From an uncultured Gammaproteobacteria bacterium (lineage in GTDB: Bacteria > Patescibacteriota > Patescibacteriia > Patescibacteriales > UBA12465), in the NCBI GenBank assembly GCA_964448505.1, contig CAYUWA010000005.1, forward strand, positions 2,726 through 50,102: a DNA stretch of 47,377 nucleotides. The letters run 5' to 3'. This document shows, in pieces, positions 7,552 through 44,583 of the stretch (within the stretch, counting starts at the first letter, position 1; each line of letters begins with the position of its first letter). The notes below the pieces were generated by a model. That model did no database searches and was not told where the DNA came from. It worked only from the letters and a program-made list of their open reading frames with translations. The position numbers and the translations under genes were made by a program.

Positions 7552-7845
7552 TTATTTCTTTTTAGCGGTTTTTTTATTCTCTCTCTTTTCTTTTATAAAC
7601 TCCATTGCTTTTTTTGCTAGTTCTCCAAGAATCATAAAGTAGGCGCCACTATTTTTCAATTTGTTTTTTGCTAAATCAACAAGCTCTTCTATTTTTACAA
7701 CGCCAGTTTCAATTTTTTTAATAATCCTATTCGCTCGCCGCATATTGGCGATGAAATAATACAAGGACCAACATAAGAAGAAAGTTAAAACGGCGATACA
7801 AAGCGCTAAAACTAAATGCAAGACGTCTAATGAAGTTGAAAACAT
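7552..7845 (-). CDS. Small membrane-anchored coiled-coil protein, function unknown
   Basis: One N-terminal TM helix, then a charged helical region and a Lys-rich tail. No recognisable catalytic motif. Confidence 0.5.
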   Translation of the reverse strand: MFSTSLDVLHLVLALCIAVLTFFLCWSLYYFIANMRRANRIIKKIETGVVKIEELVDLAKNKLKNSGAYFMILGELAKKAMEFIKEKRENKKTAKKK

Positions 7846-11347: not shown

Positions 11348-11728
11348 TTATCGGCTTTTTTTATAGCTTATTAAAAATAATTCTAAGACGATAAAGATAA
11401 CTATTAGGAGAGTAAGGTTAAGCCAACTAAAAAGATGTTTTGATTTTAAAAATAAAAGGGAAATAATAAATAGGGAAAACAAAAATGATTGGCGAAAAGC
11501 TAGGCGCACCAGATTAAAGGCTAATTCCTTCTTCATTACGCCGAAACGAACTAAGAATCCAATTAATGCCCCTGTTCCGCTTAACGATAAAAAGAGCGAA
11601 AGATAAAACAATAAAAAGCCAATCCAATTAGTCGCTCCCGGATCAATCATCCCGGCGACAAAAATAAATAGACCCCAACAAAAAGCCGTTAGAACCGCCA
11701 TCACTAATAAATAACTTCTCAGTGTCAT
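11348..11728 (-). CDS. Small polytopic membrane protein, function unknown
   Basis: Four predicted hydrophobic helices. Its start overlaps the valS stop by 4 nt (ATGA), suggesting translational coupling. Confidence 0.5.
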   Translation of the reverse strand: MTLRSYLLVMAVLTAFCWGLFIFVAGMIDPGATNWIGFLLFYLSLFLSLSGTGALIGFLVRFGVMKKELAFNLVRLAFRQSFLFSLFIISLLFLKSKHLFSWLNLTLLIVIFIVLELFLISYKKSR

Positions 11729-15656: not shown

Positions 15657-15730
15657 GCGCCTATAGCTCAGATGGTTAGAGCACCGCTCTTATAAAGCGG
15701 GGGTCGATGGTTCAAGTCCATCTAGGCGCA
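15657..15730 (+). tRNA. tRNA-Ile(UAU)
   Basis: 74 nt. Acceptor gcgccta/taggcgc plus discriminator a. D-arm gctc..gagc. Anticodon stem ccgct/agcgg with loop ctTATaa. T-arm gatgg-ttcaagt-ccatc. No CCA. Confidence 0.85.
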
Positions 15731-15734
15731 CTTT

Positions 15735-18381: not shown

Positions 18382-19134
18382 TTATTTTATAATTTCTCCC
18401 TCAACCGTACCGCCAGGAACAACTAAATTATCTTTACTTCTAAAAGTTACGAGTTGTTGCAGAGCGGTTAAAAGAGTAATAACAAACCAATAAAGCGTTA
18501 ACCCTCCCGGTAAAGAAATGCCGATAAAAATAGTAATCGCCGGCATAAAATAAAGCATCTGCTTATTCATAATCGCCATCATATTTTCTTCTTTGCCCTC
18601 GGCGGGTTTATTTGTCTTTTTCTTGGACATCATCATTTTAGCTTGCCAAAACTGCGCTAACCCGGCTAAAACCGCGATATAAATATTTGGTTTAGCTAAA
18701 TCTAGAAAACCGAACGATATAGTATTGATAATCTCCGGACGAGGAATAAAAGAATAAACCAAACCTAGATTATTTGAAACACCGTCCTGAAAGACTCTAT
18801 AAACTGCCCACAAAAAAGGTAATTGAATTAAAAGGGGGAGACAAGAAGAAAACGGATTAACTTTATATTCCTTATATAATGCCATTGTTGCCTGGCTTAA
18901 AGCAACTTTATCCGCGGCATATTTTTTCTTAAGTTCATCAATCTTTGGCTGTAAATCTTGCAAAGCTTTTTGTGATTTAATCGCTTTGCTCCCTAGGGGC
19001 CAAAAAATAAGCTTAATACAAATTGTTAAAAGAATAATTGAGACTCCAAAATCATTAAAAGAAATAGTATTATAGAGAAATACTAATAAATTCAAAATCG
19101 GTTGATAAAAGATAACCGTAATGATGTGCGCCAT
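18382..19134 (-). CDS. yidC: Membrane protein insertase YidC (short, Oxa1-like form)
   Basis: Five-TM core, KSQKALQDLQPKIDELKKKY, PFSSCLPLLIQLPFL. Position is downstream of rnpA-yidD. Confidence 0.9.
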   Translation of the reverse strand: MAHIITVIFYQPILNLLVFLYNTISFNDFGVSIILLTICIKLIFWPLGSKAIKSQKALQDLQPKIDELKKKYAADKVALSQATMALYKEYKVNPFSSCLPLLIQLPFLWAVYRVFQDGVSNNLGLVYSFIPRPEIINTISFGFLDLAKPNIYIAVLAGLAQFWQAKMMMSKKKTNKPAEGKEENMMAIMNKQMLYFMPAITIFIGISLPGGLTLYWFVITLLTALQQLVTFRSKDNLVVPGGTVEGEIIK

Positions 19135-19153
19135 AAAATTTAAGTTTTAATTA

Positions 19154-19411
19154 TTACTTAAGCGGATCGTTTCCTCCTTTATTCCAAGGATTGCATCGCA
19201 TAACCCGCCAGATTGTTTTTATTCCTCCTTTTATAATACCATACTTTTCTATTGCCTGTGCACCATACTCCGCACAACTAGGATAAAAACGGCAAAAACC
19301 ATGTGGATACATTGTTTTCAGCGGTCCGTGATCAAATGATAGGGTCTTTTGGTAAATCCTAATTAAACGAACGACCACCTTCTTCGGAAAATTCATTAAA
19401 AAAATATACAT
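19154..19411 (-). CDS. yidD: Membrane protein insertion efficiency factor YidD
   Basis: Hallmark CRFYPSCAEYGAQAIEKYG...RCNPW. Confidence 0.9.
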   Translation of the reverse strand: MYIFLMNFPKKVVVRLIRIYQKTLSFDHGPLKTMYPHGFCRFYPSCAEYGAQAIEKYGIIKGGIKTIWRVMRCNPWNKGGNDPLK

Positions 19412-19420
19412 ATACCCAGT

Positions 19421-19765
19421 TTACTTCTTATATAAGCCTAATTTCTTAAACCCAGCTCTGAGAAAGACTTCAAGGTCCTTAAAGTCCAAACTAATCGCCG
19501 GTTTTAAGACGATAATTACTAAATCAAACCCCGGTTTAAGCAAACTAAGTTCTGTTTGTATAATTTCCCTTATTCTTCTTTTTAAAAGATTTCTATCAAC
19601 CGCTTTTTTGCTTACCTTAGTGCTAATAAGTATCCCAAAGCGCGATTCTTTCAAGCTTGTAGATAGTGCTTTAAACCCTAAAAAGCCACTATAAAAAGAT
19701 TGACCAGTCTTAAATATCTGATCAAACTCTTTATCTTTATTTATTCTATTTTCTCTGTTGAGCAT
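19421..19765 (-). CDS. rnpA: Ribonuclease P protein component
   Basis: Basic 114-aa protein with KKAVDRNLLKRRIRE (RNR-type motif). Position is between rpmH and yidD. Confidence 0.9.
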   Translation of the reverse strand: MLNRENRINKDKEFDQIFKTGQSFYSGFLGFKALSTSLKESRFGILISTKVSKKAVDRNLLKRRIREIIQTELSLLKPGFDLVIIVLKPAISLDFKDLEVFLRAGFKKLGLYKK

Positions 19766-19781
19766 TTACGCTATAAATAAG

Positions 19782-19919
19782 CTATTTTGAAAGTTTTACG
19801 CGTCCTTTGTCTCGGCGTCGTTTTAAAACAACACGTCCGTCTTCAGTCTGCATTCTCTTTAAAAATCCGTGCTTTTTGCTGGCTCTTTTTTTATTCGGTT
19901 GGTATGTTCTCTTCGGCAT
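19782..19919 (-). CDS. rpmH: 50S ribosomal protein L34 (45 aa; below the ORF-track cutoff, found by hand translation)
   Basis: Translates to [45 protein letters not shown], the canonical L34 signature. Sits immediately upstream of rnpA. Confidence 0.9.
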
Positions 19920-20010
19920 AAGAATATTTTATTCATTTATTATCGTTTTTATACGATAACACTTTTATTTGTCCAAGTCAATAATGATAATGCCGTTCCC
20001 CAAATTAGAC

Positions 20011-20061
20011 TTATTCACCGTTTGTTCACATATTTTTAACAACTACACTCCTTGTGGAAAA
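20011..20061. promoter_or_regulatory. DnaA-box-like cluster upstream of dnaA
   Basis: TTATTCACC (20011-20019), TTGTTCACA (20022-20030), and TGTGGAAAA (20053-20061), whose reverse complement is TTTTCCACA. Each has one or two mismatches to TTATCCACA. Confidence 0.4.
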
Positions 20062-20139
20062 ACCCCTTATCTAATATAATAGAGCTAAGTTTATCTTCTC
20101 AGAAAAACCCCTTTATTAAGCTTAATTCTTAAACTACTT

Positions 20140-21531
20140 ATGAATAATGAACAAGTTTGGCAGGCTATTTTAGGTGAAATAGAAATAACCTTATCCAGAG
20201 CAAATTTCGTTACTTGGTTTAAAGATACTTTTATTTCCTCATTTGAAAATGAACGCGTTGTTGTTTGTGTCCCAAATGCTTTTGTTAAGAAGTGGTTAGA
20301 AGAAAAATATCATAAAAATATTTTAAGCGCTTTAGAAAACGTTACAAAACAGGAAATAAAAGAAATAATATATAAAATTGAATTGAAAAAGGGAAATAAT
20401 CCAACCTTTAAAATAAACGATACTCCTCTAGCTCAAGTCCCGGAAAATACGGCAGCAACAAGCACTAAAAGGGAAAACAATTCTAACAGTGTCCAAACCA
20501 ACCGCTTTGGATTAAATCCAAAATACTTATTTGAGAACTTTGTTGTCGGCAAAGGAAACGAGCTCGCACATGCGGCTTGCCTTGCGGTTGTTAATAATCT
20601 AGGAAAATCGTATAATCCACTATTTATTTACGGCGGAGTCGGACTTGGTAAAACCCATTTATTACAAGCTATCGGAAATGAAGTTGCTAAAAGAACCGAT
20701 AAAATACTTTATACGACTAGCGAAAAGTTTACCAATAATTATATTCAAGCGGTTACAACCGGAAAGGCTAAAGAGTTTAAAAATCTTTATCGTAATGTAG
20801 ACCTCTTGTTAATTGATGATATTCAATTTATGGGAGGGAAAGATGGAACACAAGAAGAATTCTTCCATACTTTTAATGAACTACAACAAAATGACAAACA
20901 GATTGTTCTTACTTCCGACCGTCCGCCAAAGTCTATTCCGGCGATAGAAAAAAGATTAATTTCTAGGTTTGAGTCCGGCATGGTCGCAGACGTCGGCAAG
21001 CCCGATATTGAGACTAAAATTGCAATTTTAGAAAAAAAATCAATTGAAAAAGGTTTTCCTCTTGAAAAAGATGTATTAGCTTATATTGCCGACCACGTCC
21101 AAAATAATATTAGAGAATTGGAGGGGGCTTTAATAAAAGTTATAGTTTCCCATCAATTCAAAAATATAACACCAACTATAAAATCCGTAAAAGAAATTCT
21201 CGGAGACTTTATTTCCAATATTCAAACCCGGTCGCTATCCCCACGCGATATTATAGAAGCGGTCGCCAAATTTTATAATATCTCTAATAAAGATATAACC
21301 GGAAACAGTCGTAAAAAAGAATTGGTTTGGCCAAGACAAATTGCTGTTTATATTATTAGAGAGGAGTTAAACACCTCCTACCCAACTATAGGCAATGAGC
21401 TGGGAGGGCGAGATCACACAACCGCTATGCACGCTTATAATAAGGTTTACCAAGAGGTTAAAGAAAACGGTAATGAAAAAATTAAACAAGAGCTTGAGTC
21501 AATTAAACAATTATTGACATCGGTTTATTAA
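20140..21531 (+). CDS. dnaA: Chromosomal replication initiator protein DnaA
   Basis: AAA+ Walker A GGVGLGKTHL, Walker B LLIDDIQF, sensor regions, and domain IV ending GGRDHTTAMHA. Confidence 0.97.
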   Translation: MNNEQVWQAILGEIEITLSRANFVTWFKDTFISSFENERVVVCVPNAFVKKWLEEKYHKNILSALENVTKQEIKEIIYKIELKKGNNPTFKINDTPLAQVPENTAATSTKRENNSNSVQTNRFGLNPKYLFENFVVGKGNELAHAACLAVVNNLGKSYNPLFIYGGVGLGKTHLLQAIGNEVAKRTDKILYTTSEKFTNNYIQAVTTGKAKEFKNLYRNVDLLLIDDIQFMGGKDGTQEEFFHTFNELQQNDKQIVLTSDRPPKSIPAIEKRLISRFESGMVADVGKPDIETKIAILEKKSIEKGFPLEKDVLAYIADHVQNNIRELEGALIKVIVSHQFKNITPTIKSVKEILGDFISNIQTRSLSPRDIIEAVAKFYNISNKDITGNSRKKELVWPRQIAVYIIREELNTSYPTIGNELGGRDHTTAMHAYNKVYQEVKENGNEKIKQELESIKQLLTSVY

Positions 21532-21545
21532 ATTATGTTTATAAG

Positions 21546-21802
21546 TTGTGGAAATGTTTGTTAATTTCTTGTTTACCAAAGCTTAACTCCTATTGAAGAA
21601 CTTGTGAATAAAAAACTAATTACGCAAGCTATACACAAACTATTAAAAATAATCCCTCAAATATCAAGTGATTTATCAACATATAAAACATAATTAATCC
21701 AAATAAAAATAGCAAAAAGTCATAATTTACAAAGTTATCCACCTCCTTATTACTATTATTAATTAATATATTAATTTAATAATATAATAACCAATAAATA
21801 AT
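21546..21802. promoter_or_regulatory. Candidate oriC: DnaA boxes plus AT-rich unwinding region in the dnaA-dnaN spacer
   Basis: Boxes at 21546-21554 (rc TTTCCACAA), 21603-21611 (rc TTATTCACA), 21629-21637 (CTATACACA), 21673-21681 (TTATCAACA) and 21735-21743 (TTATCCACC). An almost pure A/T tract follows at 21744-21802. Confidence 0.6.
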
Positions 21803-22930
21803 ATGAGATTTATTAGTTTGCAAGAAAATTTAAAAAGGGGTTTAAATATAGTTGGACACATTACGTCTAAAAATATTAATTTACCGATCCTAAATAATAT
21901 ATTAATTAGAGTTGAGGGTGGTAATATAGATTTTGTCAGTACAAACTTAGAGATCGGGATAGTTCATCAAGTTAGGGGAAAAATAGAGGATGATGGAGAA
22001 TTTACAGTAGACTCAAAACTGATAAACGAGTATGTGTCCCTGTTAAGCGGTAATGAAAAGGTAAAGATTGAAGAAAAAGACAGTGTTCTAAAAATAGAGT
22101 GTGGCAATTATAAAACGAAAATAAAAGGAGAGCCGGCGAAAGAATTTCCTTTAATCCCGAGTATTTCAAAAGATGCTTATTTCAGTTGTGAGGTCATCGA
22201 TTTTAAGAAAGCTTTAAATAGTGTCGTCTTCGCCGTTTCTAGTAATGATAATAGGTTGGAGTTGACCGGTGTCCTTTTTTCTTTTTTCGGCGACAAACTC
22301 GTAGTAGCGGCGACAGATAGCTACCGATTAGCCGAACGGGAGATAAAAGTAAAAGAAAATAATAAACCGGAAGAACAAAGAGTTATTGTCCCCGCAAAAA
22401 CCGTTCAAGAGGTTCTTAGAATATTAAATAATCTAGAATCACTTGATTCTCCTGAGAGTGAAAGCGTTGTTAAAATCTATTTATCAGAGGGTCAGATTCT
22501 ATTTACAGTTGATTCAGTTGAGCTTATATCCCGAGTTATAAATGGACACTACCCGGATTATAAACAAATAATTCCTAGTAAAAGCCAAACAGAAGTTCTG
22601 GTTGAGAGAAACGAACTTATTAGAGCCGTTAAAGCTGCCGCTCTTTTTTCTAAAACAGGTATAAACGATATAACTCTTTTATTTTCTAAAAATAAAATCC
22701 TAGTTTCTGCCTTTTCTGGCGCGAGTGGAGAAAGCCAAGTTGATTTAGGGGCGGAAGTAAACGGCGATGATAATGAAATTACTATCAATTATCGGTATTT
22801 ACTTGATGGCTTAAATAATATAGAAGGAGAAAAGGTTAAACTTAGTATTTTAAATAATACAACCCCTTGTGTTTTAAGACCGGAGAAAGATGAAAACCAC
22901 TTGTATATTGTTATGCCTATTAGACAGTAA
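21803..22930 (+). CDS. dnaN: DNA polymerase III beta sliding clamp
   Basis: Three-domain clamp. LPILNNILI, ATDSYRLAE, YPDYKQIIP, C-terminal MPIR. Confidence 0.95.
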   Translation: MRFISLQENLKRGLNIVGHITSKNINLPILNNILIRVEGGNIDFVSTNLEIGIVHQVRGKIEDDGEFTVDSKLINEYVSLLSGNEKVKIEEKDSVLKIECGNYKTKIKGEPAKEFPLIPSISKDAYFSCEVIDFKKALNSVVFAVSSNDNRLELTGVLFSFFGDKLVVAATDSYRLAEREIKVKENNKPEEQRVIVPAKTVQEVLRILNNLESLDSPESESVVKIYLSEGQILFTVDSVELISRVINGHYPDYKQIIPSKSQTEVLVERNELIRAVKAAALFSKTGINDITLLFSKNKILVSAFSGASGESQVDLGAEVNGDDNEITINYRYLLDGLNNIEGEKVKLSILNNTTPCVLRPEKDENHLYIVMPIRQ

Positions 22931-26828: not shown

Positions 26829-26900
26829 GCGCCCGTAGTTCAATGGATAGAACACCAGCCTTCTAAGCTGGCCACGAGGGTTCGATTCCCCCCGGGCGTA
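26829..26900 (+). tRNA. tRNA-Arg(UCU)
   Basis: 72 nt. Acceptor gcgcccg/cgggcgt (G1-U72 wobble). Anticodon stem ccagc/gctgg with loop ctTCTaa. T-loop ttcgatt. No CCA. Confidence 0.85.
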
Positions 26901-26909
26901 CGTAATTAT

Positions 26910-29315: not shown

Positions 29316-30227
29316 TTAGCTCATGAATTCGGCCATTGAAGTAACCGGTTCATAAACAATGCATCCGAATAAACTTTGGTGTTTATTATCGGCCAACCAG
29401 ATTCCTCCAGCGTATTCGTAACAACGCTTTTTTACGTTGAAGAGAAAGAACACCCGGTATATCATATCCATATTGGTTTTGTCTGTTGGCAGCCGAAACC
29501 TCATCGGTTCTATATAATCCTGGATATATAGATCCCTTTCTTCTTCAATAATTTTCAGGATTTTTGACTTTGTGGTGATCCCGCCATTTTTATTACTTTC
29601 TTTTCTTCTCATCCTTTTCGGGATCCAAACGGCTGTTCCGTTTGGGGAGAGAAGCCCGGTTTGAGTTATCCTTGTTTGGCTCTTTAAGCAAAAAGATTCC
29701 TCAAGGTCTAGCCGAGAGCCCTTTTCAAGGACCGAAGAGTCTAATTCCTCCCAGAGATCTAAGGAGAGACCGTAACTGCGGTCTCCTCTTTCCAGACAAG
29801 TGCTAACCGACCTATGTTGTAAAGATTCTAAGTCGCTAATGTTTTTCGTGCTTTCCAGCAGAATTAATTGGTTAGTGGCTTTCGCTTCACGTACAGAAAG
29901 TGTCTCTAAAAAATGGTTTGCTTCTCTTTGGGATACCAGTTTAAATTTAGGCCAGTACTGGCGACACTTGTTCCAAGCATTGATAAAAGTTGAATCATAT
30001 TCCAAGAGATCAGTATCTCTCGGAGCTTCATCAATTTCAAGAATTGATAGGACTCCTCTATTATTAATAGTACAATCCGTACAAACAATAAAAGAGGGAA
30101 CGCCGTAGTTCTGATTAACCCAAGTATTTTCCTTGGGGAAACATTTTGACCATCTGTCGATCAAATTTCTTAACTTGTGCAGTTCCGTTTGGTTTAGCAC
30201 TTCCTGGTTTAATGAAAAATTTTTCAT
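29316..30227 (-). CDS. Orphan 303-aa protein, function unknown; possible circularly permuted ATP-grasp-like fold
   Basis: Long uninterrupted ORF with its own terminator. It looks richer in G+C and in Cys/Trp/Arg than its neighbours. LYIQDYIEP...YRVFFLF sits near the C-terminus and SILEIDEAPR near the N-terminus. Confidence 0.6.
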   Translation of the reverse strand: MKNFSLNQEVLNQTELHKLRNLIDRWSKCFPKENTWVNQNYGVPSFIVCTDCTINNRGVLSILEIDEAPRDTDLLEYDSTFINAWNKCRQYWPKFKLVSQREANHFLETLSVREAKATNQLILLESTKNISDLESLQHRSVSTCLERGDRSYGLSLDLWEELDSSVLEKGSRLDLEESFCLKSQTRITQTGLLSPNGTAVWIPKRMRRKESNKNGGITTKSKILKIIEEERDLYIQDYIEPMRFRLPTDKTNMDMIYRVFFLFNVKKRCYEYAGGIWLADNKHQSLFGCIVYEPVTSMAEFMS

Positions 30228-33942: not shown

Positions 33943-35577
33943 ATGGCAAGAGCAATTGAAATACTGCTTAAAACAGGAGTTAAGAAGCTAAAAACCAGAG
34001 ATGATTTAGAGGATTTAAAACGGAATATTTGCCGGGAATATAAGCTTAAATCTATTTTGAACTCCGATATATTAAAGGAATATCGGAGACTTTTGGTTTC
34101 TGGCGAAATCAAGAGAATTGAGTCTTTGGAGAAGATTTTGCGTAAGCGTTCGGTTCGGACTATGTCGGGGATTGCGCCGGTTGCTGTTTTGACCAAATCT
34201 TATCCTTGCCCGGGAGAGTGTGCTTATTGTCCTCATGAAAGCGACGTTCCGACCAGTTATTTATCTAATGAACCGGCGGTAATGCGGGCTATCCGCTGTG
34301 GCTATGACCCATATAAGCAAGTAGTTCTTAGATTAAAAGCTTTAGAAAATAATGGCCATGAACCGACTAAAATAGAGTTGATTGTTATTGGCGGTACCTG
34401 GAGTTATTTACCGACCAAATATAAGTATTGGTATATTTTGAACTGCTTTAAAGCGGCTAATGATTTTACTAAGATAAAAAAACTCGTTTTTAAAAGAGCG
34501 GCCGGAGAAGAAAAATTTAAATTAGGATTAAAAGCACCCTATAAGCAGAATCTTAGCTTAAAAGAATTAAAAAAAGAGCTTTTAAAAGAACAAAAAATAA
34601 ACGAACGAGCGCGTTATAATTTAATCGGTGTTACGCTTGAGACCAGGCCTGATTATATAAATAAAAAAGAGCTTTTAGAGATGAGAGATTTAGGCTGTAC
34701 TCGAGTTGAAATCGGCGTGCAGGCGATTGACGATAAAATTTTGGCTTTAAATAAACGAGGCCACGGGGTTTTAGAAATTTCTGAAGCGACCAAACTTTTA
34801 AAAGAATATGGTTTCAAAGTGACCTATCACTTGATGCCGGCTCTTCCTGGGGCGACGCCTAAGAAAGATTTAGAAATGTTCAAACAATTATTTTCCGACG
34901 AAAGATTTCAGCCGGATCAAATAAAATTTTATCCAACAGTCGTAACTAAAGGAAGTTTATTATACAAATGGTACAAAGCCGGAAAATATAAACCGTATTC
35001 TGACCGAGTTTTGCAAGACTTGATTATTAATTGTAAGGCGGCGGTTCCGGAGTATGTTCGGATTATTCGATTAATTAGAGATATTCCCGAAGAATCAATT
35101 ATTGCTGGCAATAAAATTACCAATCTGAGGCAAGTCCTAAAAGATAGAGGCGTCAAGTGTTCATGTATCAGATGCCGGGAGTCTAAAGAAGAAACAAAAA
35201 TTAAAAAATATAAATTAAAAATAATAAAATATTCAGCTTCAATCGGAACAGAGTATTTTATTTCTGCCGAAAGCACTGATGGAAAAATATTATATGCCTT
35301 TTGTCGCTTGCGCCTTGATAGTAATAGCCCAATTTCCGAAGCGATTATCCGCGAGCTGCATGTTTACGGACAGCTTGTTGCCGTTGGCGGTGATAAGAAG
35401 GTTCAGCATAGCGGACTCGGTAAAAAATTATTGGAAGAAGCCGAAAAAATCGCTTCTAAGAATAAGTGTCAAAATATCGCCGTTATTTCCGGAGTTGGCG
35501 TTAGGGGATATTATAAAAAACTTGGGTATAGGACTTATAATTCGTACTTAATTAAAAAATTGAAAGGAAATCTATAA
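33943..35577 (+). CDS. elp3: Elp3-family radical-SAM/GNAT enzyme (tRNA U34 carboxymethylation, Elongator catalytic subunit homologue)
   Basis: RSVRTMSGIAPVAVLTKSYPCPGECAYCP (Cys cluster), SYLSNEPAVMRA, DPYKQV, ELIVIGGTWS, TLETRPDYI, RVEIGVQ. C-terminal GNAT RELHVYG...QHSGLGKKLLEEAEKIA. Confidence 0.9.
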   Translation: MARAIEILLKTGVKKLKTRDDLEDLKRNICREYKLKSILNSDILKEYRRLLVSGEIKRIESLEKILRKRSVRTMSGIAPVAVLTKSYPCPGECAYCPHESDVPTSYLSNEPAVMRAIRCGYDPYKQVVLRLKALENNGHEPTKIELIVIGGTWSYLPTKYKYWYILNCFKAANDFTKIKKLVFKRAAGEEKFKLGLKAPYKQNLSLKELKKELLKEQKINERARYNLIGVTLETRPDYINKKELLEMRDLGCTRVEIGVQAIDDKILALNKRGHGVLEISEATKLLKEYGFKVTYHLMPALPGATPKKDLEMFKQLFSDERFQPDQIKFYPTVVTKGSLLYKWYKAGKYKPYSDRVLQDLIINCKAAVPEYVRIIRLIRDIPEESIIAGNKITNLRQVLKDRGVKCSCIRCRESKEETKIKKYKLKIIKYSASIGTEYFISAESTDGKILYAFCRLRLDSNSPISEAIIRELHVYGQLVAVGGDKKVQHSGLGKKLLEEAEKIASKNKCQNIAVISGVGVRGYYKKLGYRTYNSYLIKKLKGNL

Positions 35578-35584
35578 AATCTGT

Positions 35585-36592
35585 ATGGAAGATAACATAA
35601 AATTTTCCGGGCTTGGTCCGATTTTAAAAAAGTTAGCGCCAAAAGTCGGGGCGAAAATTATAGTTGAGCCAAAATGGGGACTCGTCGGACAAATAAGCTT
35701 TTCTAATGGCGTTAAAAGATATTTTAGGTATTCAAGCCTAGACCTTAATCCGCTTGGTGCTTCGGCAATTTCTAAAGATAAAGATTACGCCAATTTTTTT
35801 ATGAGCAAAATGGGTTACCCGATAATTTCCGGGAAAGCCTTTTGTTCTCCTATTTGGGCCAAAACCATAGGACAAAAACAAAAAGATCAAGAAGCGTATC
35901 AGTATGCCAAAGAAATTGGTTTCCCGCTTATCGCTAAGCCTAATAGCGGTAGTCAGGGAAATGGAGTTTTTCTTGCCAATAATAAAATAGAATTAAAGCG
36001 AGCTCTGAAATATATATTTGATAGAGATAATATTGCGCTTATTCAAAAATTTATTTCCGGAAACGATTATCGCATCGTCGTCTTGGACAATAAAATAATT
36101 TCCGCCTATCAAAGAATCCCGTTTTGTATTATCGGTAATTCTAAGGATACAATTGATAAATTAATTAAAAATAAATTAAAAAACCTAGCGAGTTTAAATC
36201 GTCCGGTTAATGTTAAAGTAGACGATTTAAGAGTAATCCAAAATCTAAAAAGACAAAAATTGAATTTAAAATCAGTTTTGAAAAAAGACAAAAAAATATA
36301 TCTTTTAAATAACGCTAATCTTTCTTCGGGCGGAGAGGCAATTGAGGTAACGAAAAAGATCCATCCGGACTTTAAGAAATTAGCGATTAAGCTCACCAAA
36401 GATATGGGGCTTCGTCTTTGCGGCGTAGATTTGATAGTTCAGGGGGAAATTAGTTTGCCGGCTAAGAAATATCAAGTTATAGAAATTAATGCGGCACCGG
36501 GACTAGACCACTATATTAAACTGGGACGCGCACAAGAAAAAATCGTAGAGAGGATGTATTTAGAGGTTTTAAAAGCGATGAAAAGAGCTTAA
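35585..36592 (+). CDS. Stand-alone ATP-grasp ligase resembling the cyanophycin-synthetase ATP-grasp domain (RimK-like superfamily)
   Basis: GFPLIAKPNSGSQGNGV, IQKFISGNDYRIVVLDNKIISAYQR, NLSSGGEAIEVTKKIHPDFKKLAIKLTKDMGLRLCGVDLIV, VIEINAAPGL. Starts 7 nt after the Elp3 stop. Confidence 0.85.
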   Translation: MEDNIKFSGLGPILKKLAPKVGAKIIVEPKWGLVGQISFSNGVKRYFRYSSLDLNPLGASAISKDKDYANFFMSKMGYPIISGKAFCSPIWAKTIGQKQKDQEAYQYAKEIGFPLIAKPNSGSQGNGVFLANNKIELKRALKYIFDRDNIALIQKFISGNDYRIVVLDNKIISAYQRIPFCIIGNSKDTIDKLIKNKLKNLASLNRPVNVKVDDLRVIQNLKRQKLNLKSVLKKDKKIYLLNNANLSSGGEAIEVTKKIHPDFKKLAIKLTKDMGLRLCGVDLIVQGEISLPAKKYQVIEINAAPGLDHYIKLGRAQEKIVERMYLEVLKAMKRA

Positions 36593-39148: not shown

Positions 39149-40927
39149 ATGGTTAAGAAAAAACAACAATTAATTGAGCTTTTAAAGATTCATTTCGGTT
39201 ATGAATCTTTTTTGCCTGGGCAGGAGCTAGCGATTGATAATATTCTACAAGGCAAAGATACGCTTGTCGTTTTGCCGACGGGAGGAGGTAAATCCCTTAT
39301 CTTCCAATTACCCGCCTTAATTCAAGAGGGGATAACGATTGTTATTTCTCCGCTTATCGCTTTAATGAAGGACCAAGTTGATTCTTTAGAACGAGTTGGT
39401 ATTCCGGCGACTTTTATTAATTCTTCAATCAGTCCCGACGAGACCAGTAATCGTTTAGAGAAATTAAAATCCGGATTTTATAAGATTGTTTATATCGCCC
39501 CGGAGCGTTTTTATAATACCGTTTTTTTAAACGAACTTAACAAAATAAAAGTATCATTGTTTGCGATTGACGAAGCGCATTGCGTTAGCCAATGGGGGCA
39601 TGATTTCCGGCCGAGCTATTTAAGACTTAAAGAAGCAATAAAATTTGTCGGCAATCCGCCCGTTGTTGCTTTAACCGCAACGGCCACGCCGGAAGTAAGA
39701 GAGGATATAATCAAACAATTAAATCTGCATGATCCGGAAACAATTATTACCGGTTTTGCCAGACCGAACTTACAGTTAGCGGTTATCCCTTCCGCTAACG
39801 GTCAAAAGATAGAAAATATTCTAAATTTTTTAGTTACCAATCCGGAAATCGGTTCCGGTATAGTTTATGTCGGGACGAGGGCAAAGGCGGACGAACTCGC
39901 CGAGGTATTAATGGATAACGATATTAAAACCGTTGTTTATCATGCCGGGATGGACTCAAATAGCCGCGATTGGGTCCAGGAAAAATTTATGAAAGGTGAA
40001 GCACAAGTTGTTGTCGCGACTAACGCTTTTGGTTTAGGTATTAATAAAAAAAATATTCGTTTCGTTATTCATCACGACTTGCCGGGGACAGTTGAGGCTT
40101 ATTACCAAGAAGCCGGACGTGCCGGAAGAGACGGGGCACCTAGTTTTTGCCTATTATTTTATCATGCCCAAGACAGATATTTAAGAGAATTTTTTATTAA
40201 AGGAGACAATCCTGACCCAAAACTGATAATTGAGATTTATGATTTTTTAGTAACTCAGGCTAGTTTAGAAATTGACCCGGAAGCCTCTATTTTAATTACC
40301 TATGCGGAAATTGCTAAAAATTTAAGCGAAAATGTGCCGGAAATGGCGATAGGCACCGCTTTAAAAATTCTAGAGAAAGAGGGCTATATTTCTCGGCCAA
40401 ACGAGAAAACGTCCAACTCCTATTTAAAAACCAAGAAAAACCCGGAAGAGATAAGCGCCGCCCTTGGTAAAAGAGCAAAAAGCCAAATAGAAATTTTTAA
40501 TCTCCTGGTTGAAAAATACCATCGGGAGTTAGAAGCCGGTTGGGATTTTAATCCGGAAGAAGTTGCGATAGTTTTAAAAGTGAAGAAAGACGCATTACTT
40601 CGCGCGATAAAGAAATTAGCGGAAAAAGATTTAGTTGAGTATAAACCGCCGTTTAGAGGAACGGAAATAAAATTACTAAAAATTGTCGAGGCGGAAAGTT
40701 TAAAACTTGATTTTAAAGCGCTCAAAGAAAAAATGGCGCGGGCTTATGAGAAACTTGATGAGATGGAAAATTATGTCTATAGTCTAGAATGCCGTCAGAA
40801 ATATATCTTAAATTATTTTGGCGATTCTAGGAGTGCAGAGTGCGGCAAATGTGATAATTGTTTAAGAACCAATCGAATTAATAAAAACAGCAAAGACGAT
40901 TATCGGAAGCGCGAGTATTTATCCTAA
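39149..40927 (+). CDS. recQ: ATP-dependent DNA helicase RecQ (no obvious HRDC domain)
   Basis: [50 protein letters not shown], and a Zn-binding CxxxxxxxxxxCGKCDNC region. Confidence 0.9.
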
Positions 40928-40930
40928 ATT

Positions 40931-41623
40931 ATGAAAGTAAATTTTCAGAAAGAACTATTAGAAATTGTTAAACGGAATTATGAAGAAATTTCCGAGAGTT
41001 TTAATTTAACGAGGCGCAAAGAAATTTGGCCGGAAATAAAAATTCTAGCGGAAGGAATAAAAGAGGGCGATAAGATTTTGGACTTAGGCTGCGGAAACGG
41101 ACGGTTAGTCGAGGCCTTAAAAGATAAAACACTAGAATATTTAGGAATTGATGCCAGCTCCGAATTAATTTCCAAAGCGAAACTAAATTATCCGGGCTAT
41201 AGTTTTTTAGTTCAAGATATTATTGACTTAAAATTCAATAATGATAAAAAATATAATTATATTTTTTGTTTAGCGGTTTTACAGCATATTCCGGGAACGG
41301 ACTTAAGAATTAGCGTTCTTAAAAGGATGAAAGAGTTATTACTCCCGGGAGGAAAAATCATCGTCAGTAATTGGAATCTTTGGCGGAGTAAAAAACACCG
41401 CATTCTTTTAATTAGAAATTTTTTAACAAAACTTCTGGGGAAAAACGAACTTGATTTCGGTGATATTATCTTTCCTTGGAAAAACTCGCAGGGAGAAGAA
41501 GTAAGTACAAGATATTACCATGGTTTTACCGCCGGGGAATTAAGGAGCCTTTCTAAAAGGGCAGGTTTTAAAATAGAAAAGTTATATAAAGATAATTACA
41601 ATTATTGGCTAATATTAAAGTAA
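40931..41623 (+). CDS. Trm9/ALKBH8-like class I SAM-dependent methyltransferase (candidate tRNA cm5U34 to mcm5U34 methyltransferase)
   Basis: YEEISESFNLTRRKEIWPEI resembles Trm9 Y-EIA-HFS-TR---WP. ILDLGCGNGR is the SAM motif I. CLAVLQHIP...LLPGGKIIVSNWNLW, IIFPW, and RYYHGFTAGELRSL...NYWLILK resemble RYYH-F-EGEL...NW-V---K. Starts 3 nt after the recQ stop. Confidence 0.75.
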   Translation: MKVNFQKELLEIVKRNYEEISESFNLTRRKEIWPEIKILAEGIKEGDKILDLGCGNGRLVEALKDKTLEYLGIDASSELISKAKLNYPGYSFLVQDIIDLKFNNDKKYNYIFCLAVLQHIPGTDLRISVLKRMKELLLPGGKIIVSNWNLWRSKKHRILLIRNFLTKLLGKNELDFGDIIFPWKNSQGEEVSTRYYHGFTAGELRSLSKRAGFKIEKLYKDNYNYWLILK

Positions 41624-41657: not shown

Positions 41658-41687
41658 TTGACACCCCCTGGGGGTATATGATAAAAT
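41658..41687 (+). promoter_or_regulatory. Promoter with an embedded palindromic operator (CsoR-family type)
   Basis: TTGACA (41658-41663), 18-nt spacer, TAAAAT (41682-41687). The spacer is filled by the perfect palindrome ACCCCC-T-GGGGGT (41663-41675). Confidence 0.6.
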
Positions 41688-41957: not shown

Positions 41958-42290
41958 ATGTCTAACGCTTTAGAAGTAAACAAAGATAGTTTTAAAAATG
42001 AAGTTCTAGAAAGTCCGGTTCCAGTTTTGGTTGATTTTTGGGCACCTTGGTGTATGCCTTGTAAAATGATGGCGCCGATTTTAGATGAACTTTCCGGTGA
42101 GTTAGCAGGAAAAGTAAAAATCGTTAAAGTAAATACGGAAGACGGTACCAATCAAGACTTAGCGATTGAATATCAAATTCAAAGCATTCCTAATATGAAG
42201 CTTTTTAAGGGCGGTAATATTATTGGTGAATTTATTGGTTTAAGAAACAAGGAAATATTAAAAGGAGAAATTGAGGACTTAATTAAATAA
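41958..42290 (+). CDS. trxA: Thioredoxin (active site WCMPC)
   Basis: VLVDFWAPWCMPCKMMAPILDE...KVNTE...IQSIPNMKLFKGG. Confidence 0.9.
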   Translation: MSNALEVNKDSFKNEVLESPVPVLVDFWAPWCMPCKMMAPILDELSGELAGKVKIVKVNTEDGTNQDLAIEYQIQSIPNMKLFKGGNIIGEFIGLRNKEILKGEIEDLIK

Positions 42291-43578: not shown

Positions 43579-44583
43579 TTAGTTGCAGGCGGCGTCGGTA
43601 GCCGTATTGGCTGTTCCTGAGCCGAAACCCGGAGCAGGGGAATCGCTTGATAAGGTTGTTGCACATTCTTTTGGTTCTTCAGAGAAGGCACCGCAGACAG
43701 TCTTTAATAAGCTAGCAGAATCACGTCCTGATTGTGCTTCAGTTCCGTTTATAACTAAAGTTGGAGAGCCGGCAACGCCATACTTTGTATTATCTTCTTT
43801 ATAAATATCAAATCCCGGGTAGCTTCCTTTGAAACCAACTTTGTTAGTAAAGTTCTCGCTTACTTTAAATTTCTTGTCGGTTGATTTAACGCAAGATTCA
43901 ACTTTTGATTTGTTTACTCCAGCTGTTTCAAGACAAGGAGCAGATTCACCGCTTACCAAGAAACATTTTAGGTAGGCATTAAGTTTAGTTGATTGGTCTT
44001 TTTGAATACAGTATTGAGCTAATTGTTCTTGTAATTCTTTTTCACCGTGCATCGCGTAGTCAACAAACTTTAACTCAAAATCAATTTTCTTGCCCAGTAA
44101 CTCAACAACCGGAAGCATTCCTTTTTCAATTTGTGTACCGTATGGGCAATGGCTCATAACGAATAACTCAACAACCGGCTTATCAGTTTTTGGAAGAACA
44201 GCTGAAGGAGCGGAATCGGTCGGGGTACCGTTAGCATCGGTTTCTACCGAAGCGCCGGTTTTAACTTCCAACGCTTGAGGAAAGAATAATTTTCCGTCCT
44301 TGGTTAAATACGATTCTACAACATCACTAACGATATCAACTTTTAATTTATAAAGACCGTATTCAGTTGTTATTTCTTTAATAGTTGCTTTTGTATCGCC
44401 TTGCATTAAGAACTTATTGATAAATTCTTCGGCTTGGGTTTTTGCTTCTGCTTTGCTCAAGTTATTGAAAGATCCTCTAAAGGAGAAATAACCGATTAAA
44501 GCTAGGGCAATAACCAAAACGATAGGGAGCAGTACCCTTACTAAGAACTTTCGTTCTTTTAATTTTTTTAGTAGTTTCTTCAT
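43579..44583 (-). CDS. Membrane-anchored secreted thioredoxin-fold (DsbA-like) protein with a monothiol CPYG motif
   Basis: N-terminal TM, a linker, then VELFVMSHCPYGTQ at the expected CxxC position. Many additional Cys in the C-terminal half. Confidence 0.7.
   Translation of the reverse strand: MKKLLKKLKERKFLVRVLLPIVLVIALALIGYFSFRGSFNNLSKAEAKTQAEEFINKFLMQGDTKATIKEITTEYGLYKLKVDIVSDVVESYLTKDGKLFFPQALEVKTGASVETDANGTPTDSAPSAVLPKTDKPVVELFVMSHCPYGTQIEKGMLPVVELLGKKIDFELKFVDYAMHGEKELQEQLAQYCIQKDQSTKLNAYLKCFLVSGESAPCLETAGVNKSKVESCVKSTDKKFKVSENFTNKVGFKGSYPGFDIYKEDNTKYGVAGSPTLVINGTEAQSGRDSASLLKTVCGAFSEEPKECATTLSSDSPAPGFGSGTANTATDAACN

What the first reader, a model, noticed from the sequence alone, without database searches (positions are those of the whole stretch)
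40931..41623. Trm9/ALKBH8-like methyltransferase about 5 kb downstream of Elp3
Beyond the generic SAM motif (ILDLGCGNGR), the protein shares family-specific blocks that I recall from yeast Trm9 and the human ALKBH8 methyltransferase domain. These are an N-terminal Y-EI---F--TR---WP block, an internal (V/I)-(F/V)-PW block, and a C-terminal RYYH-F--GEL ... NW--I--K block. Trm9 methylates the Elp3 product cm5U to mcm5U. Finding both enzymes in one bacterial window points to a complete mcm5U-type pathway. The gene appears translationally linked to recQ (3-nt gap), an unusual partner.
Basis: partly seen in the sequence, partly recalled or inferred. Interest (0 to 1): 0.7.

Follow-up and report, generated by a model that had tools for sequence, protein, structure and literature searches.

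The report
Bacterial Trm9-type tRNA methyltransferase, Elp3-linked
This small bacterial gene is a true relative of Trm9, the enzyme that in yeast, humans and archaea finishes a wobble-base tRNA modification started by Elp3, and it sits next to Elp3 in many bacterial lineages, so these bacteria probably make a modification (mcm5U) so far documented only outside bacteria.

Summary
ORF 40931-41623 (+) encodes 230 aa, starts 3 nt after the recQ stop, and lies 5.35 kb downstream of a full-length Elp3 (33943-35577).

- Curated family libraries give only generic SAM-methyltransferase hits.
- Among solved structures the best match, by sequence and by fold, is Yarrowia Trm9 (5cm2_Z). It is the only full-length match (E 5.6e-14; 5.5e-23 with a family profile).
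- All eight residues shown by mutagenesis to be essential in yeast Trm9 are present, and are invariant or nearly so in 30 Patescibacteria homologs.
- In one-genome-per-species contigs, 55 of 75 loci carrying this signature have Elp3 within 10 kb. Fifty-two are head-to-head, with a median gap of about 209 nt. This spans Patescibacteria, Chloroflexota, Acidobacteriota, Fermentibacteria and archaea.
- Controls are clean: 0 of 5 generic methyltransferases and 2 of 80 loci of the neighbouring ATP-grasp gene have Elp3 nearby.

No Trm112 partner was found in the window or near any locus. The recQ adjacency is lineage-specific.

I found no paper describing a bacterial Trm9, and a 2017 review states none was detectable. 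Verdict: a new bacterial member of a known kind, predicting an Elp3→Trm9 mcm5U pathway in bacteria. No biochemistry has been done.

The parts
40931..41623 (+). Trm9-family SAM-dependent methyltransferase (230 aa). Predicted tRNA cm5U34 carboxyl-methyltransferase, with mcm5U34 as product.
   Evidence: ORF. The best match in the PDB, and the only one to align along the whole length (to the extent of the crystallised construct, which lacks the first 38 residues), is Yarrowia Trm9, 5cm2_Z. The essential Trm9 residues are conserved. The AF2 model has pLDDT 89.8. Elp3 neighbourhood in 55 of 75 loci.
33943..35577 (+). Elp3 (radical-SAM plus GNAT tRNA U34 carboxymethyl synthase), which makes the presumed substrate cm5U34.
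   Evidence: TIGR01211 at 537 bits against a cut-off of 350, over the full profile. Pfam Radical_SAM, Radical_SAM_C and Acetyltransf domains. Best PDB match is Dehalococcoides Elp3, 5l7j, at 2.4e-115, with a shared PCPGxCxYCP cluster motif.
39149..40927 (+). recQ-family helicase, immediately upstream and co-oriented (3-nt gap). Probably co-transcribed with the methyltransferase. Not inferred to be part of the tRNA pathway.
   Evidence: TIGR00614 at 445 bits against 220. Gap read directly. The recQ-methyltransferase order occurs only in the window's sub-lineage (L002, L003, L005, L022, L081-L083), with gaps of 3 to about 490 nt, or about 6 kb in L002.
35585..36592 (+). ATP-grasp ligase 7 nt after Elp3. 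A lineage-specific neighbour, not part of the module.
   Evidence: RimK and cyanophycin-synthetase-like ATP-grasp hits. Absent from the syntenic locus L083. Only 2 of 80 loci of this family have Elp3 nearby.
26829..26901 (+). tRNA-Arg(UCU), a candidate substrate. This is inference only: the UCU isoacceptor carries mcm5U in yeast.
   Evidence: ARAGORN. Anticodon loop CU-UCU-AA read.
41658..41687 (+). Promoter-like site (TTGACA-18-TAAAAT with an extended TG) between the methyltransferase stop and csoR, suggesting the recQ-methyltransferase unit ends here.
   Evidence: Consensus scan, 11 of 12 matches. This is weak evidence by its nature.

Best explanation
The gene encodes a bacterial orthologue of Trm9 and of the ALKBH8 methyltransferase domain. 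It is a class I SAM-dependent enzyme that methyl-esterifies the carboxyl group of 5-carboxymethyluridine (cm5U) at wobble position 34 of certain tRNAs, giving mcm5U. The substrate is made by the stand-alone Elp3 encoded 5.35 kb upstream.

Shown here:
- Homology to Trm9 over the whole length.
- Conservation of every residue that mutagenesis showed to be needed for tRNA binding or catalysis in yeast Trm9.
- A strong, phylogenetically broad gene-neighbourhood link to Elp3.

Inferred:
- The chemical reaction itself.
- The tRNA substrates, probably U34 tRNAs for split codon boxes such as Arg-UCU.
- That Elp3 in this organism makes cm5U.

In this lineage the ancestral head-to-head Elp3/Trm9 pair appears to have been split by glyA-folD-recQ. 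The methyltransferase is now most likely co-transcribed with recQ.
For: Sequence and fold:
- Yarrowia Trm9 is the top PDB hit and the only full-length one: E 5.6e-14 for the single sequence and 5.5e-23 for the family profile, against 1.4e-12 for the next hit.
- Foldseek on a confident AF2 model (pLDDT 89.8) also ranks 5cm2_Z first (TM 0.83 normalised to the target).
- BLASTP against yeast Trm9 aligns residues 1-183 and 191-230.

Active site. PMC4678810 shows that R29, D72, H116, W145, W168, R241, Y243 and N271 of ScTrm9 are required for activity. It models Y18 and R241 at the cm5U carboxylate, N271 on the uracil O2/N3, and W145 stacking on U34.
- These map to R28, D74, H119, W148, W183, R194, Y196, N224 and Y17 in the window protein.
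- All are invariant or at least 90% conserved in 30 Patescibacteria homologs.

Neighbourhood:
- 55 of 75 signature-bearing loci from species-representative genomes have Elp3 within the fetched flank.
- Among loci with at least 2.5 kb of upstream sequence the count is 47 of 59.
- 52 are divergent head-to-head pairs, with a median gap of about 209 nt.
- They span Patescibacteria, Chloroflexota, Acidobacteriota, Fermentibacteria, WWE3 and Crenarchaeota.

Controls:
- 0 of 5 generic methyltransferases lacking the signature have Elp3 nearby.
- 2 of 80 loci of the neighbouring ATP-grasp family have Elp3 nearby.

Further support:
- Relatives at 56-66% identity keep the order Elp3...glyA-folD-recQ-methyltransferase.
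- An NJ tree places the window protein in a Patescibacteria clade next to archaeal and fungal Trm9, apart from generic methyltransferases.
- Archaeal Trm9 has been shown experimentally to make mcm5U, and an Elp3/Trm9 cluster was noted in Sulfolobus (PMC6144793).
Against: - There is no biochemical or nucleoside-level evidence for any bacterial member.
- No Trm112 homolog, which is an obligate activator of eukaryotic and Haloferax Trm9, was found. It is absent from the window, and within about 6 kb on either side of the methyltransferase in 80 loci no recurrent third gene family and no recurrent double-CxxC zinc-ribbon ORF turned up. No Trm112 profile was run on those loci, so a Cys-less Trm112 is excluded only by the clustering. 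The rest of the genome could not be searched.
- H115 of ScTrm9 is Gln (Q118) in the window's sub-lineage. The H115A mutant keeps about 25% of activity.
- In many Chloroflexota members N271 is Gly, Ser or Ala and Y243 is Val or Cys, so specificity may vary across the family.
- The NJ tree has no support values.
It was checked only by its agreement with the paper's numbering at 11 positions.
Confidence: 0.8

Rival explanations
1. It is a Trm9-family enzyme that works on the Elp3 pathway, but differently from canonical Trm9. It might need an unlinked Trm112-like partner, act on a different xm5U intermediate (for example a 2-thiolated or otherwise derivatised form), or yield an end product other than mcm5U.
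For: No Trm112 gene lies near any of the loci. H115 is replaced by Gln here, and N271 and Y243 vary in the Chloroflexota clade. In Haloferax the trm9 and trm112 mutants do not accumulate cm5U, which shows that the pathway chemistry differs between lineages (PMC6144793).
Against: In the window protein every residue proposed to contact the carboxylate and the uracil ring is kept. The Trm112-interface positions are polar in Patescibacteria, but they are equally polar in archaeal members, which do use Trm112, so that comparison decides nothing.
Confidence: 0.13
2. It is a generic small-molecule or protein methyltransferase of the Methyltransf_11/UbiE/UbiG/SmtA type, and its position near Elp3 is coincidental.
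For: Pfam and NCBIfam return only generic methyltransferase families, with weak UbiG, UbiE, MetW and BioC hits. NCBI and JGI mostly name relatives 'class I SAM-dependent methyltransferase' or 'UbiE'.
Against: - Those hits cover only the Rossmann core (residues about 40-150) and lie far below the curated cut-offs.
- The N-terminal helix and the C-terminal lid align only with Trm9.
- Elp3 adjacency in 55 of 75 loci, against 0 of 5 and 2 of 80 in the controls, cannot be coincidence.
- Generic methyltransferases form the outgroup in the tree.
Confidence: 0.03
3. The gene is archaeal or eukaryotic contamination, a mis-assembly, or a decaying recent transfer with no function in this bacterium.
For: Trm9 is otherwise known from eukaryotes and archaea. 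In the NJ tree the Patescibacteria clade sits next to archaeal and fungal Trm9.
Against: - The window is a typical bacterial chromosomal origin region, with rpmH-rnpA-yidD-yidC, dnaA, dnaN, PBP1, pheST, valS and topA. G+C is uniform at 32-40%.
- The ORF is intact and the family is under strong constraint (52% mean column identity and 37 invariant columns).
- The same synteny recurs on independent contigs up to 822 kb long.
- There are 739 representative clusters (at 50% identity) at E<=1e-30.
Confidence: 0.02

Closest known systems
Fungal Trm9 (S. cerevisiae Trm9; Y. lipolytica Trm9-Trm112, PDB 5CM2)
   Same: - Class I SAM-methyltransferase core, N-terminal helix carrying Y..F..TR, and a C-terminal beta-hairpin lid with PW and RYYH.
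- All eight mutationally essential residues are conserved.
- About 24-28% identity over the full length.
- Acts, by prediction, downstream of Elp3.
   Different: - Lacks the yeast-specific insertion of about 70 residues.
- Has one extra residue between TR and WP, and a longer helix (residues 154-168) before the PW hairpin.
- H115 is replaced by Gln.
- No Trm112 gene was detected nearby.
- Two of the hydrophobic residues of the Trm112-binding core (V59 and F78 in Yarrowia) are Lys/Arg and Asp/Glu here.
Human ALKBH8, C-terminal methyltransferase domain
   Same: The same Trm9-type methyltransferase domain. One Patescibacteria homolog (P0011) was even auto-named 'alkB family protein 8' by JGI.
   Different: The bacterial protein is a stand-alone 230-aa domain without RRM or AlkB dioxygenase domains, so no mchm5U step is predicted. 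I did not compare it directly with the ALKBH8 sequence.
Archaeal Trm9 (Haloferax volcanii HVO_1032, with Trm112; Elp3/Trm9 cluster in Sulfolobus)
   Same: - A prokaryotic stand-alone Trm9 working with a stand-alone Elp3.
- Gene clustering with Elp3 (L035, Crenarchaeota).
- Archaeal sequences sit next to the Patescibacteria clade in the NJ tree.
   Different: HvoTrm9 needs Trm112 in vivo (PMC6144793), and the partner status of the bacterial protein is unknown. The host here is a bacterium, where mcm5U has not been reported in any paper I could find.
E. coli CmoM (SmtA), the cmo5U to mcmo5U methyltransferase
   Same: By analogy only, from my own knowledge: a bacterial class I methyltransferase that methyl-esterifies a carboxyl group on a U34 side chain.
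   Different: A different substrate pathway (CmoA/CmoB rather than Elp3). No CmoM-type family appears among the hits. CmoA and CmoB appear only as weak core matches (28 and 20 bits).

Membership tests
Trm9 / ALKBH8-MT family (tRNA cm5U34 methyltransferase) | Class I SAM-methyltransferase fold with motif I (D/E-x-G-x-G-x-G) and the acidic residue that binds the SAM ribose (ScTrm9 D72) | tested here: met
   LDLGCGNG at 50-57 and D74 aligned to ScD72. Pfam Methyltransf_11/12/23/25/31 hits. AF2 model with the alternating beta/alpha core. Residue table.
Trm9 / ALKBH8-MT family (tRNA cm5U34 methyltransferase) | Closest similarity is to Trm9 across the whole protein, including the N-terminal helix and the C-terminal lid, not only across the Rossmann core | tested here: met
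   5cm2_Z is the top hit, aligned over residues 29-230 (the crystallised construct lacks the first 38 residues): E 5.6e-14 and 5.5e-23, with the next hits covering the core only. Foldseek rank 1. BLASTP against ScTrm9 starts at residue 1.
Trm9 / ALKBH8-MT family (tRNA cm5U34 methyltransferase) | Residues shown by mutagenesis to be essential (ScTrm9 R29, D72, H116, W145, W168, R241, Y243, N271), plus Y18 at the modelled carboxylate site | tested here: met
   Window residues R28, D74, H119, W148, W183, R194, Y196, N224 and Y17. They are invariant or at least 90% conserved in A1. The non-essential H115 is Q118.
Trm9 / ALKBH8-MT family (tRNA cm5U34 methyltransferase) | Functional coupling to Elp3/Elongator, which makes the cm5U substrate | tested here: met
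   Elp3 in the same window. 55 of 75 signature loci have Elp3 in the flank, 52 of them head-to-head. Controls give 0 of 5 and 2 of 80. Genome-wide co-occurrence was not testable.
Trm9 / ALKBH8-MT family (tRNA cm5U34 methyltransferase) | Obligate heterodimer with the zinc-knuckle protein Trm112 | tested here: inconclusive
   - No PF03966 hit among the 41 window ORFs scanned against Pfam; the other small intergenic ORFs were only read by eye.
- No recurrent third gene family and no recurrent double-CxxC zinc-ribbon ORF within about 6 kb on either side of the methyltransferase in 80 loci; no Trm112 profile was run on these.
- No Trm112 fusion among the few over-long family members inspected (P0238, P0249, P0255, P0152 and P0021).
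- Interface residues are polar in bacteria, but also in archaea that do use Trm112.
- The rest of the genome is not available.
Trm9 / ALKBH8-MT family (tRNA cm5U34 methyltransferase) | Catalyses cm5U34 to mcm5U34 on tRNA | not testable with these tools
   Needs an enzyme assay or nucleoside mass spectrometry.
   UbiG scores 49 bits against a cut-off of 103, UbiE and MenG 24-27 against 158-236, and BioC 32 against 185. Generic methyltransferases lacking the signature form the outgroup.

The most novel reading that the evidence does not exclude
Several bacterial phyla (Patescibacteria, Chloroflexota, some Acidobacteriota and Fermentibacteria) carry an ancient two-gene Elp3/Trm9 module. It makes the 'eukaryotic/archaeal' wobble modification mcm5U34. 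Unlike every characterised Trm9, the bacterial enzyme works as a stand-alone protein without Trm112. The Patescibacteria clade is the closest bacterial relative of archaeal and eukaryotic Trm9.
Probability: 0.4. Interest if true: 0.7.

Novelty: new member of a known kind. Interest (0 to 1): 0.6.

Why it matters
Textbook bacterial wobble-uridine chemistry is MnmE/MnmG-type (cmnm5U, mnm5U) or Cmo-type. Bacterial Elp3 has been studied structurally in Dehalococcoides, but what becomes of its cm5U product in bacteria has not been addressed in the papers I could read.

A review by the group that solved Trm9-Trm112 states that no bacterial homologs of the Trm112-dependent methyltransferases could be detected (PMC5372719). 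The family described here contradicts that statement. It has 739 representative clusters (50% identity) at E<=1e-30 and is encoded head-to-head with Elp3 in many lineages.

If the prediction holds:
- mcm5U would extend to the third domain of life.
- Bacterial Elp3 would gain a downstream partner.
- A small, possibly Trm112-independent Trm9 would be available for structural and mechanistic work.
- There would be a marker for reconstructing decoding in the reduced genomes of Patescibacteria.

The prediction can be tested directly with existing yeast trm9-delta assays.

Tried and rejected
1. ATP-grasp gene as an amide ligase. The ATP-grasp gene 7 nt after Elp3 (35585-36592) might have converted cm5U to ncm5U or to an amino-acid conjugate. 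Rejected:
- Only 2 of 80 metagenomic loci of this family have Elp3 nearby.
- Among the 51 loci with at least 1.8 kb of upstream sequence, only 1 has it.
- The gene is missing from the syntenic locus L083.

2. Trm112 partner. Nothing found in any of these searches:
- Pfam scans of 41 window ORFs (36 gene-sized ones, yidD, DUF4342 and the three unassigned ORFs scanned); the remaining small intergenic ORFs, including the rpmH-like one, were only read by eye.
- Double-CxxC small ORFs near the 80 loci.
- All-against-all clustering of neighbours, where only Elp3 and ORFs overlapping Elp3 on the other strand recur.
- N-terminally extended family members, which look like mis-called starts, plus one thioredoxin fusion. 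None is Trm112.

3. Predicting Trm112 independence from interface residues. Inconclusive, because archaeal members are equally polar at these positions.

4. recQ as a functional partner. Rejected as a general feature. recQ is adjacent only in the window's sub-lineage, and the gap varies.

5. Literature. Ten full-text searches found no paper combining Trm9, mcm5U or Elp3 with Patescibacteria, CPR or Chloroflexota. The Dehalococcoides Elp3 structure paper (PMC5018218) is not in the library, so I could not check whether it mentions a neighbouring methyltransferase.

6. Promoter and terminator scans. These give only consensus-level hints of the units Elp3+ATP-grasp, glyA-folD and recQ-methyltransferase.
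Full report
**What is there.** The window is a low-G+C (32-40%) stretch of bacterial chromosome. It carries the origin-region genes rpmH-rnpA-yidD-yidC, dnaA and dnaN. It also carries der, pth, dprA, topA, pheST, valS, a class A PBP, a SpoU methylase and six tRNA genes. The closest protein relatives are from Patescibacteria (CPR) assemblies.

The ORF named in the finding is real: 40931-41623 (+), ATG start, 230 aa. Homologs align from residue 1, which supports the start codon. recQ (39149-40927) stops at TAA, 3 nt before the ATG. Elp3 lies at 33943-35577 on the same strand, 5,354 nt upstream. It matches TIGR01211 at 537 bits against a cut-off of 350, along the whole model. Its best solved relative is Dehalococcoides Elp3, 5l7j (2.4e-115), including the PCPGxCxYCP cluster motif.

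**Is it Trm9-like or a generic methyltransferase?** The curated libraries do not decide this.
- Pfam gives only the generic Methyltransf_11/12/23/25/31 families.
- All NCBIfam equivalog hits cover just the Rossmann core and lie far below their cut-offs.

Solved structures are more informative, because they hold about a hundred class I methyltransferases that match this protein.
- phmmer ranks Yarrowia lipolytica Trm9 (5cm2_Z) first at 5.6e-14. The alignment runs from residue 29 to the C-terminus, and the crystallised construct lacks its first 38 residues.
- The next hits start at 4e-10 and stop at about residue 150.
- A profile of 30 Patescibacteria homologs (A1; 52% mean column identity, 37 invariant columns) widens the gap to 5.5e-23 against 1.4e-12.
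- An AlphaFold2 model built on A1 is confident (pLDDT 89.8, pTM 0.88). Foldseek again puts 5cm2_Z first (TM 0.83 on the target), although by fold alone the margin over other small methyltransferases is narrow.
- BLASTP against S. cerevisiae Trm9 aligns residues 1-183 (7e-18) and 191-230 (9e-05), on either side of the yeast-specific insertion.

It is 279 aa long and reproduces the numbering of Létoquart et al. at all 11 positions checked.

**Active-site test.** Létoquart et al. 2015 (PMC4678810) mutated conserved residues around the SAM methyl group of ScTrm9.
- R29A, D72A, H116A, W145A, W168A, R241A, Y243A and N271A abolish or strongly reduce activity. Except for D72A, this occurs without loss of SAM binding.
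- H24A, K31A, H115A, R122A, E148A, Q149A and D270A are tolerated in vivo.
- Their docking places Y18 and R241 at the cm5U carboxylate, N271 on O2/N3 of the uracil, H115 on O4, and W145 stacked on the base.

In the alignments these residues correspond to the following window residues:

| ScTrm9 | Window protein |
|---|---|
| Y18 | Y17 |
| R29 | R28 |
| D72 | D74 |
| H116 | H119 |
| W145 | W148 |
| W168 | W183 |
| R241 | R194 |
| Y243 | Y196 |
| N271 | N224 |

Each is invariant or at least 90% conserved in A1. The only change at a modelled contact is H115 to Q118, at a position where the alanine mutant keeps about a quarter of activity.

**Link to Elp3.** I scanned one genome per species (GTDB representatives) with the family alignment and kept the best 80 loci with 10-kb flanks. 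I then searched them with the window's proteins and tabulated signature residues for each locus.
- 75 loci carry the Trm9 signature. Five (L072-L074, L079, L080) are generic methyltransferases that match only the core.
- Elp3 is present in the fetched flank of 55 of the 75 signature loci. Among those with at least 2.5 kb of upstream sequence, the count is 47 of 59.
- None of the five generic loci has Elp3.
- In 52 loci the two genes are divergent and head-to-head, with a median of about 209 nt between the aligned ends.
- One Gracilibacteria locus has Elp3 followed by the methyltransferase 14 nt later. A Crenarchaeota locus has the methyltransferase followed by Elp3, which matches the published Sulfolobus cluster (PMC6144793).
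- The carriers span many Patescibacteria classes, Chloroflexota (Anaerolineae, Caldilineae and others), Acidobacteriota, Fermentibacteria, WWE3 and archaea.
- Clustering all ORFs within about 6 kb of the methyltransferase found no third recurrent family. The other recurrent clusters are ORFs overlapping Elp3 on the opposite strand.

As an internal control, the ATP-grasp gene next to Elp3 in the window was scanned in the same way against metagenomes. Only 2 of 80 loci have Elp3 nearby.

**The window's own arrangement.** Relatives at 66% and 56% identity keep the order Elp3-(ATP-grasp)-glyA-folD-recQ-methyltransferase-csoR-trx-gdh on independent contigs, one of them 822 kb long. L022 shows the same order. 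In this sub-lineage the common head-to-head pair has been separated and Elp3 re-oriented.

The recQ-methyltransferase gap is 3 nt here. It is 6 nt in L081, 28 nt in L083, about 45 nt in L022, and about 250-490 nt in L003 and L005. In L002 recQ lies about 6 kb upstream rather than adjacent. Tight coupling is therefore not conserved, and recQ is absent from the neighbourhood elsewhere. No Shine-Dalgarno-like sequence sits at the usual spacing before the ATG. A strong promoter-like site follows the methyltransferase stop (41658-41687). Both points fit co-transcription with recQ, but this is consensus-level evidence only.

**Phylogeny and family size.** In a neighbour-joining tree of the locus proteins plus the two fungal Trm9 sequences, all signature-bearing proteins separate from the generic methyltransferases.
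- One large clade holds the Chloroflexota, Acidobacteriota and related sequences.
- The other holds Patescibacteria together with archaeal and fungal Trm9. The window protein sits in a Falkowbacteria-related subclade.
- There are no support values and only two eukaryotic sequences, so this is indicative only.

An exhaustive profile search of 1.84 billion 50%-identity representatives gives 739 proteins at E<=1e-30. Almost all of the best 150 are stand-alone proteins of 220-250 aa. The few longer ones are apparent mis-called starts or a thioredoxin fusion, not Trm112 fusions.

**Trm112.** Eukaryotic Trm9 and Haloferax Trm9 need Trm112 (PMC4678810; PMC6144793). I found no Trm112-like gene in the window or near any locus.

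Of the hydrophobic Yarrowia residues that Trm112 shields, V59 and F78 are Lys/Arg and Asp/Glu/Asn in Patescibacteria, while F116 and D117 are kept. The archaeal members are similarly polar at V59 and F78, so the comparison cannot decide the question. Whether the bacterial enzyme is autonomous remains open.

**Mechanism proposed.** Elp3 carboxymethylates U34 of a subset of tRNAs using SAM and acetyl-CoA. This is established for archaeal and bacterial Elp3 in vitro (PMC6367351 and PMC13315578). The Trm9-like enzyme then transfers a methyl group from SAM to the cm5U carboxylate. Y17 and R194 would hold the carboxylate, N224 and Q118 would read the uracil, and W148 would stack on it, giving mcm5U34.

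Homology, active-site conservation and genomic coupling are shown here. The reaction, the tRNA set (for example the tRNA-Arg UCU at 26829-26901) and the independence from a partner are inferred.

**Novelty.** Archaeal and eukaryotic Trm9 are well characterised. [quoted passage not shown] The 2018 archaeal paper adds nothing on bacterial Trm9.

Ten full-text searches found no paper linking Trm9, mcm5U or Elp3 with Patescibacteria, CPR or Chloroflexota. The Dehalococcoides Elp3 structure paper could not be read. Public annotations call these proteins generic methyltransferases or UbiE. One JGI record is auto-named 'alkB family protein 8'.

I rate this a new (bacterial) member of a known kind. 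The enzyme type is not new, but its presence and its tight Elp3 coupling in bacteria appear undescribed, and they predict mcm5U in a third domain.

**Verdict.**
- Confidence that this is a Trm9-type cm5U34 methyltransferase working with Elp3: 0.8.
- Interest: 0.6. This is a solid, directly testable prediction that corrects a statement in the literature, but it is a logical extension of the known bacterial Elp3 rather than a new principle.

Noticed in passing
window 15657-15731 (+): A tRNA-Ile gene with anticodon UAU (loop CU-UAU-AA). Most bacteria decode AUA with a CAU tRNA modified by TilS. A U34 tRNA-Ile would need its wobble base controlled, so its modification state is worth checking in an Elp3/Trm9 organism.
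   Followed up: partly
window 35585-36592 (+): An ATP-grasp ligase (similar to the cyanophycin-synthetase N-terminal and GshB-type domains) starts 7 nt after the Elp3 stop. I tested it as a possible cm5U amide ligase. The pairing is confined to the closest relatives (2 of 80 loci) and is absent from L083, so it is probably unrelated to Elp3.
   Followed up: yes
window 18382-22930: Chromosomal origin region: yidC, yidD, rnpA and a 45-aa rpmH-like ORF on the minus strand, then dnaA and dnaN on the plus strand. The cumulative GC-skew minimum falls at about 18-22 kb.
   Followed up: partly
L038-L055, L060 and L063 (Chloroflexota clade of the family): In many Chloroflexota members the uracil-reading Asn (ScTrm9 N271) is Gly, Ser or Ala. 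In these, and in many members of other clades, Y243 is Val or Cys. Most of them still sit head-to-head with Elp3. Base recognition or the product may differ in that clade.
   Followed up: no
L019 438-2616 (Gracilibacteria); L035 468-2250 (Crenarchaeota): These are exceptions to the head-to-head rule. In L019 Elp3 is followed by the methyltransferase after 14 nt. In L035 the methyltransferase is followed by Elp3 after about 80 nt. Both are operon-like arrangements.
   Followed up: no
P0021 (348 aa, relative from a 1.7-kb contig): A family member is fused in frame to a thioredoxin that resembles the window's trx (41958-42290). This mirrors the window's methyltransferase...trx gene order. It could be a real fusion or an assembly or stop-codon artefact.
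   Followed up: no
window 33943-35577 (+): Compared with Dehalococcoides Elp3, the window Elp3 has about 67 extra N-terminal residues, with a weak ELP3_N match. It also has an unaligned insertion at about residues 175-214, between the two aligned blocks. The N-terminal extension resembles the tRNA-binding extension of archaeal Elp3.
   Followed up: partly
window 43579-44583 (-), 29316-30227 (-), 7552-7845 (-), 11348-11728 (-): Four ORFs have no Pfam match. The 334-aa one has an N-terminal membrane anchor and a C-terminal part with several cysteines, including a CPYG motif, which suggests an extracytoplasmic thiol-disulfide protein.
   Followed up: no
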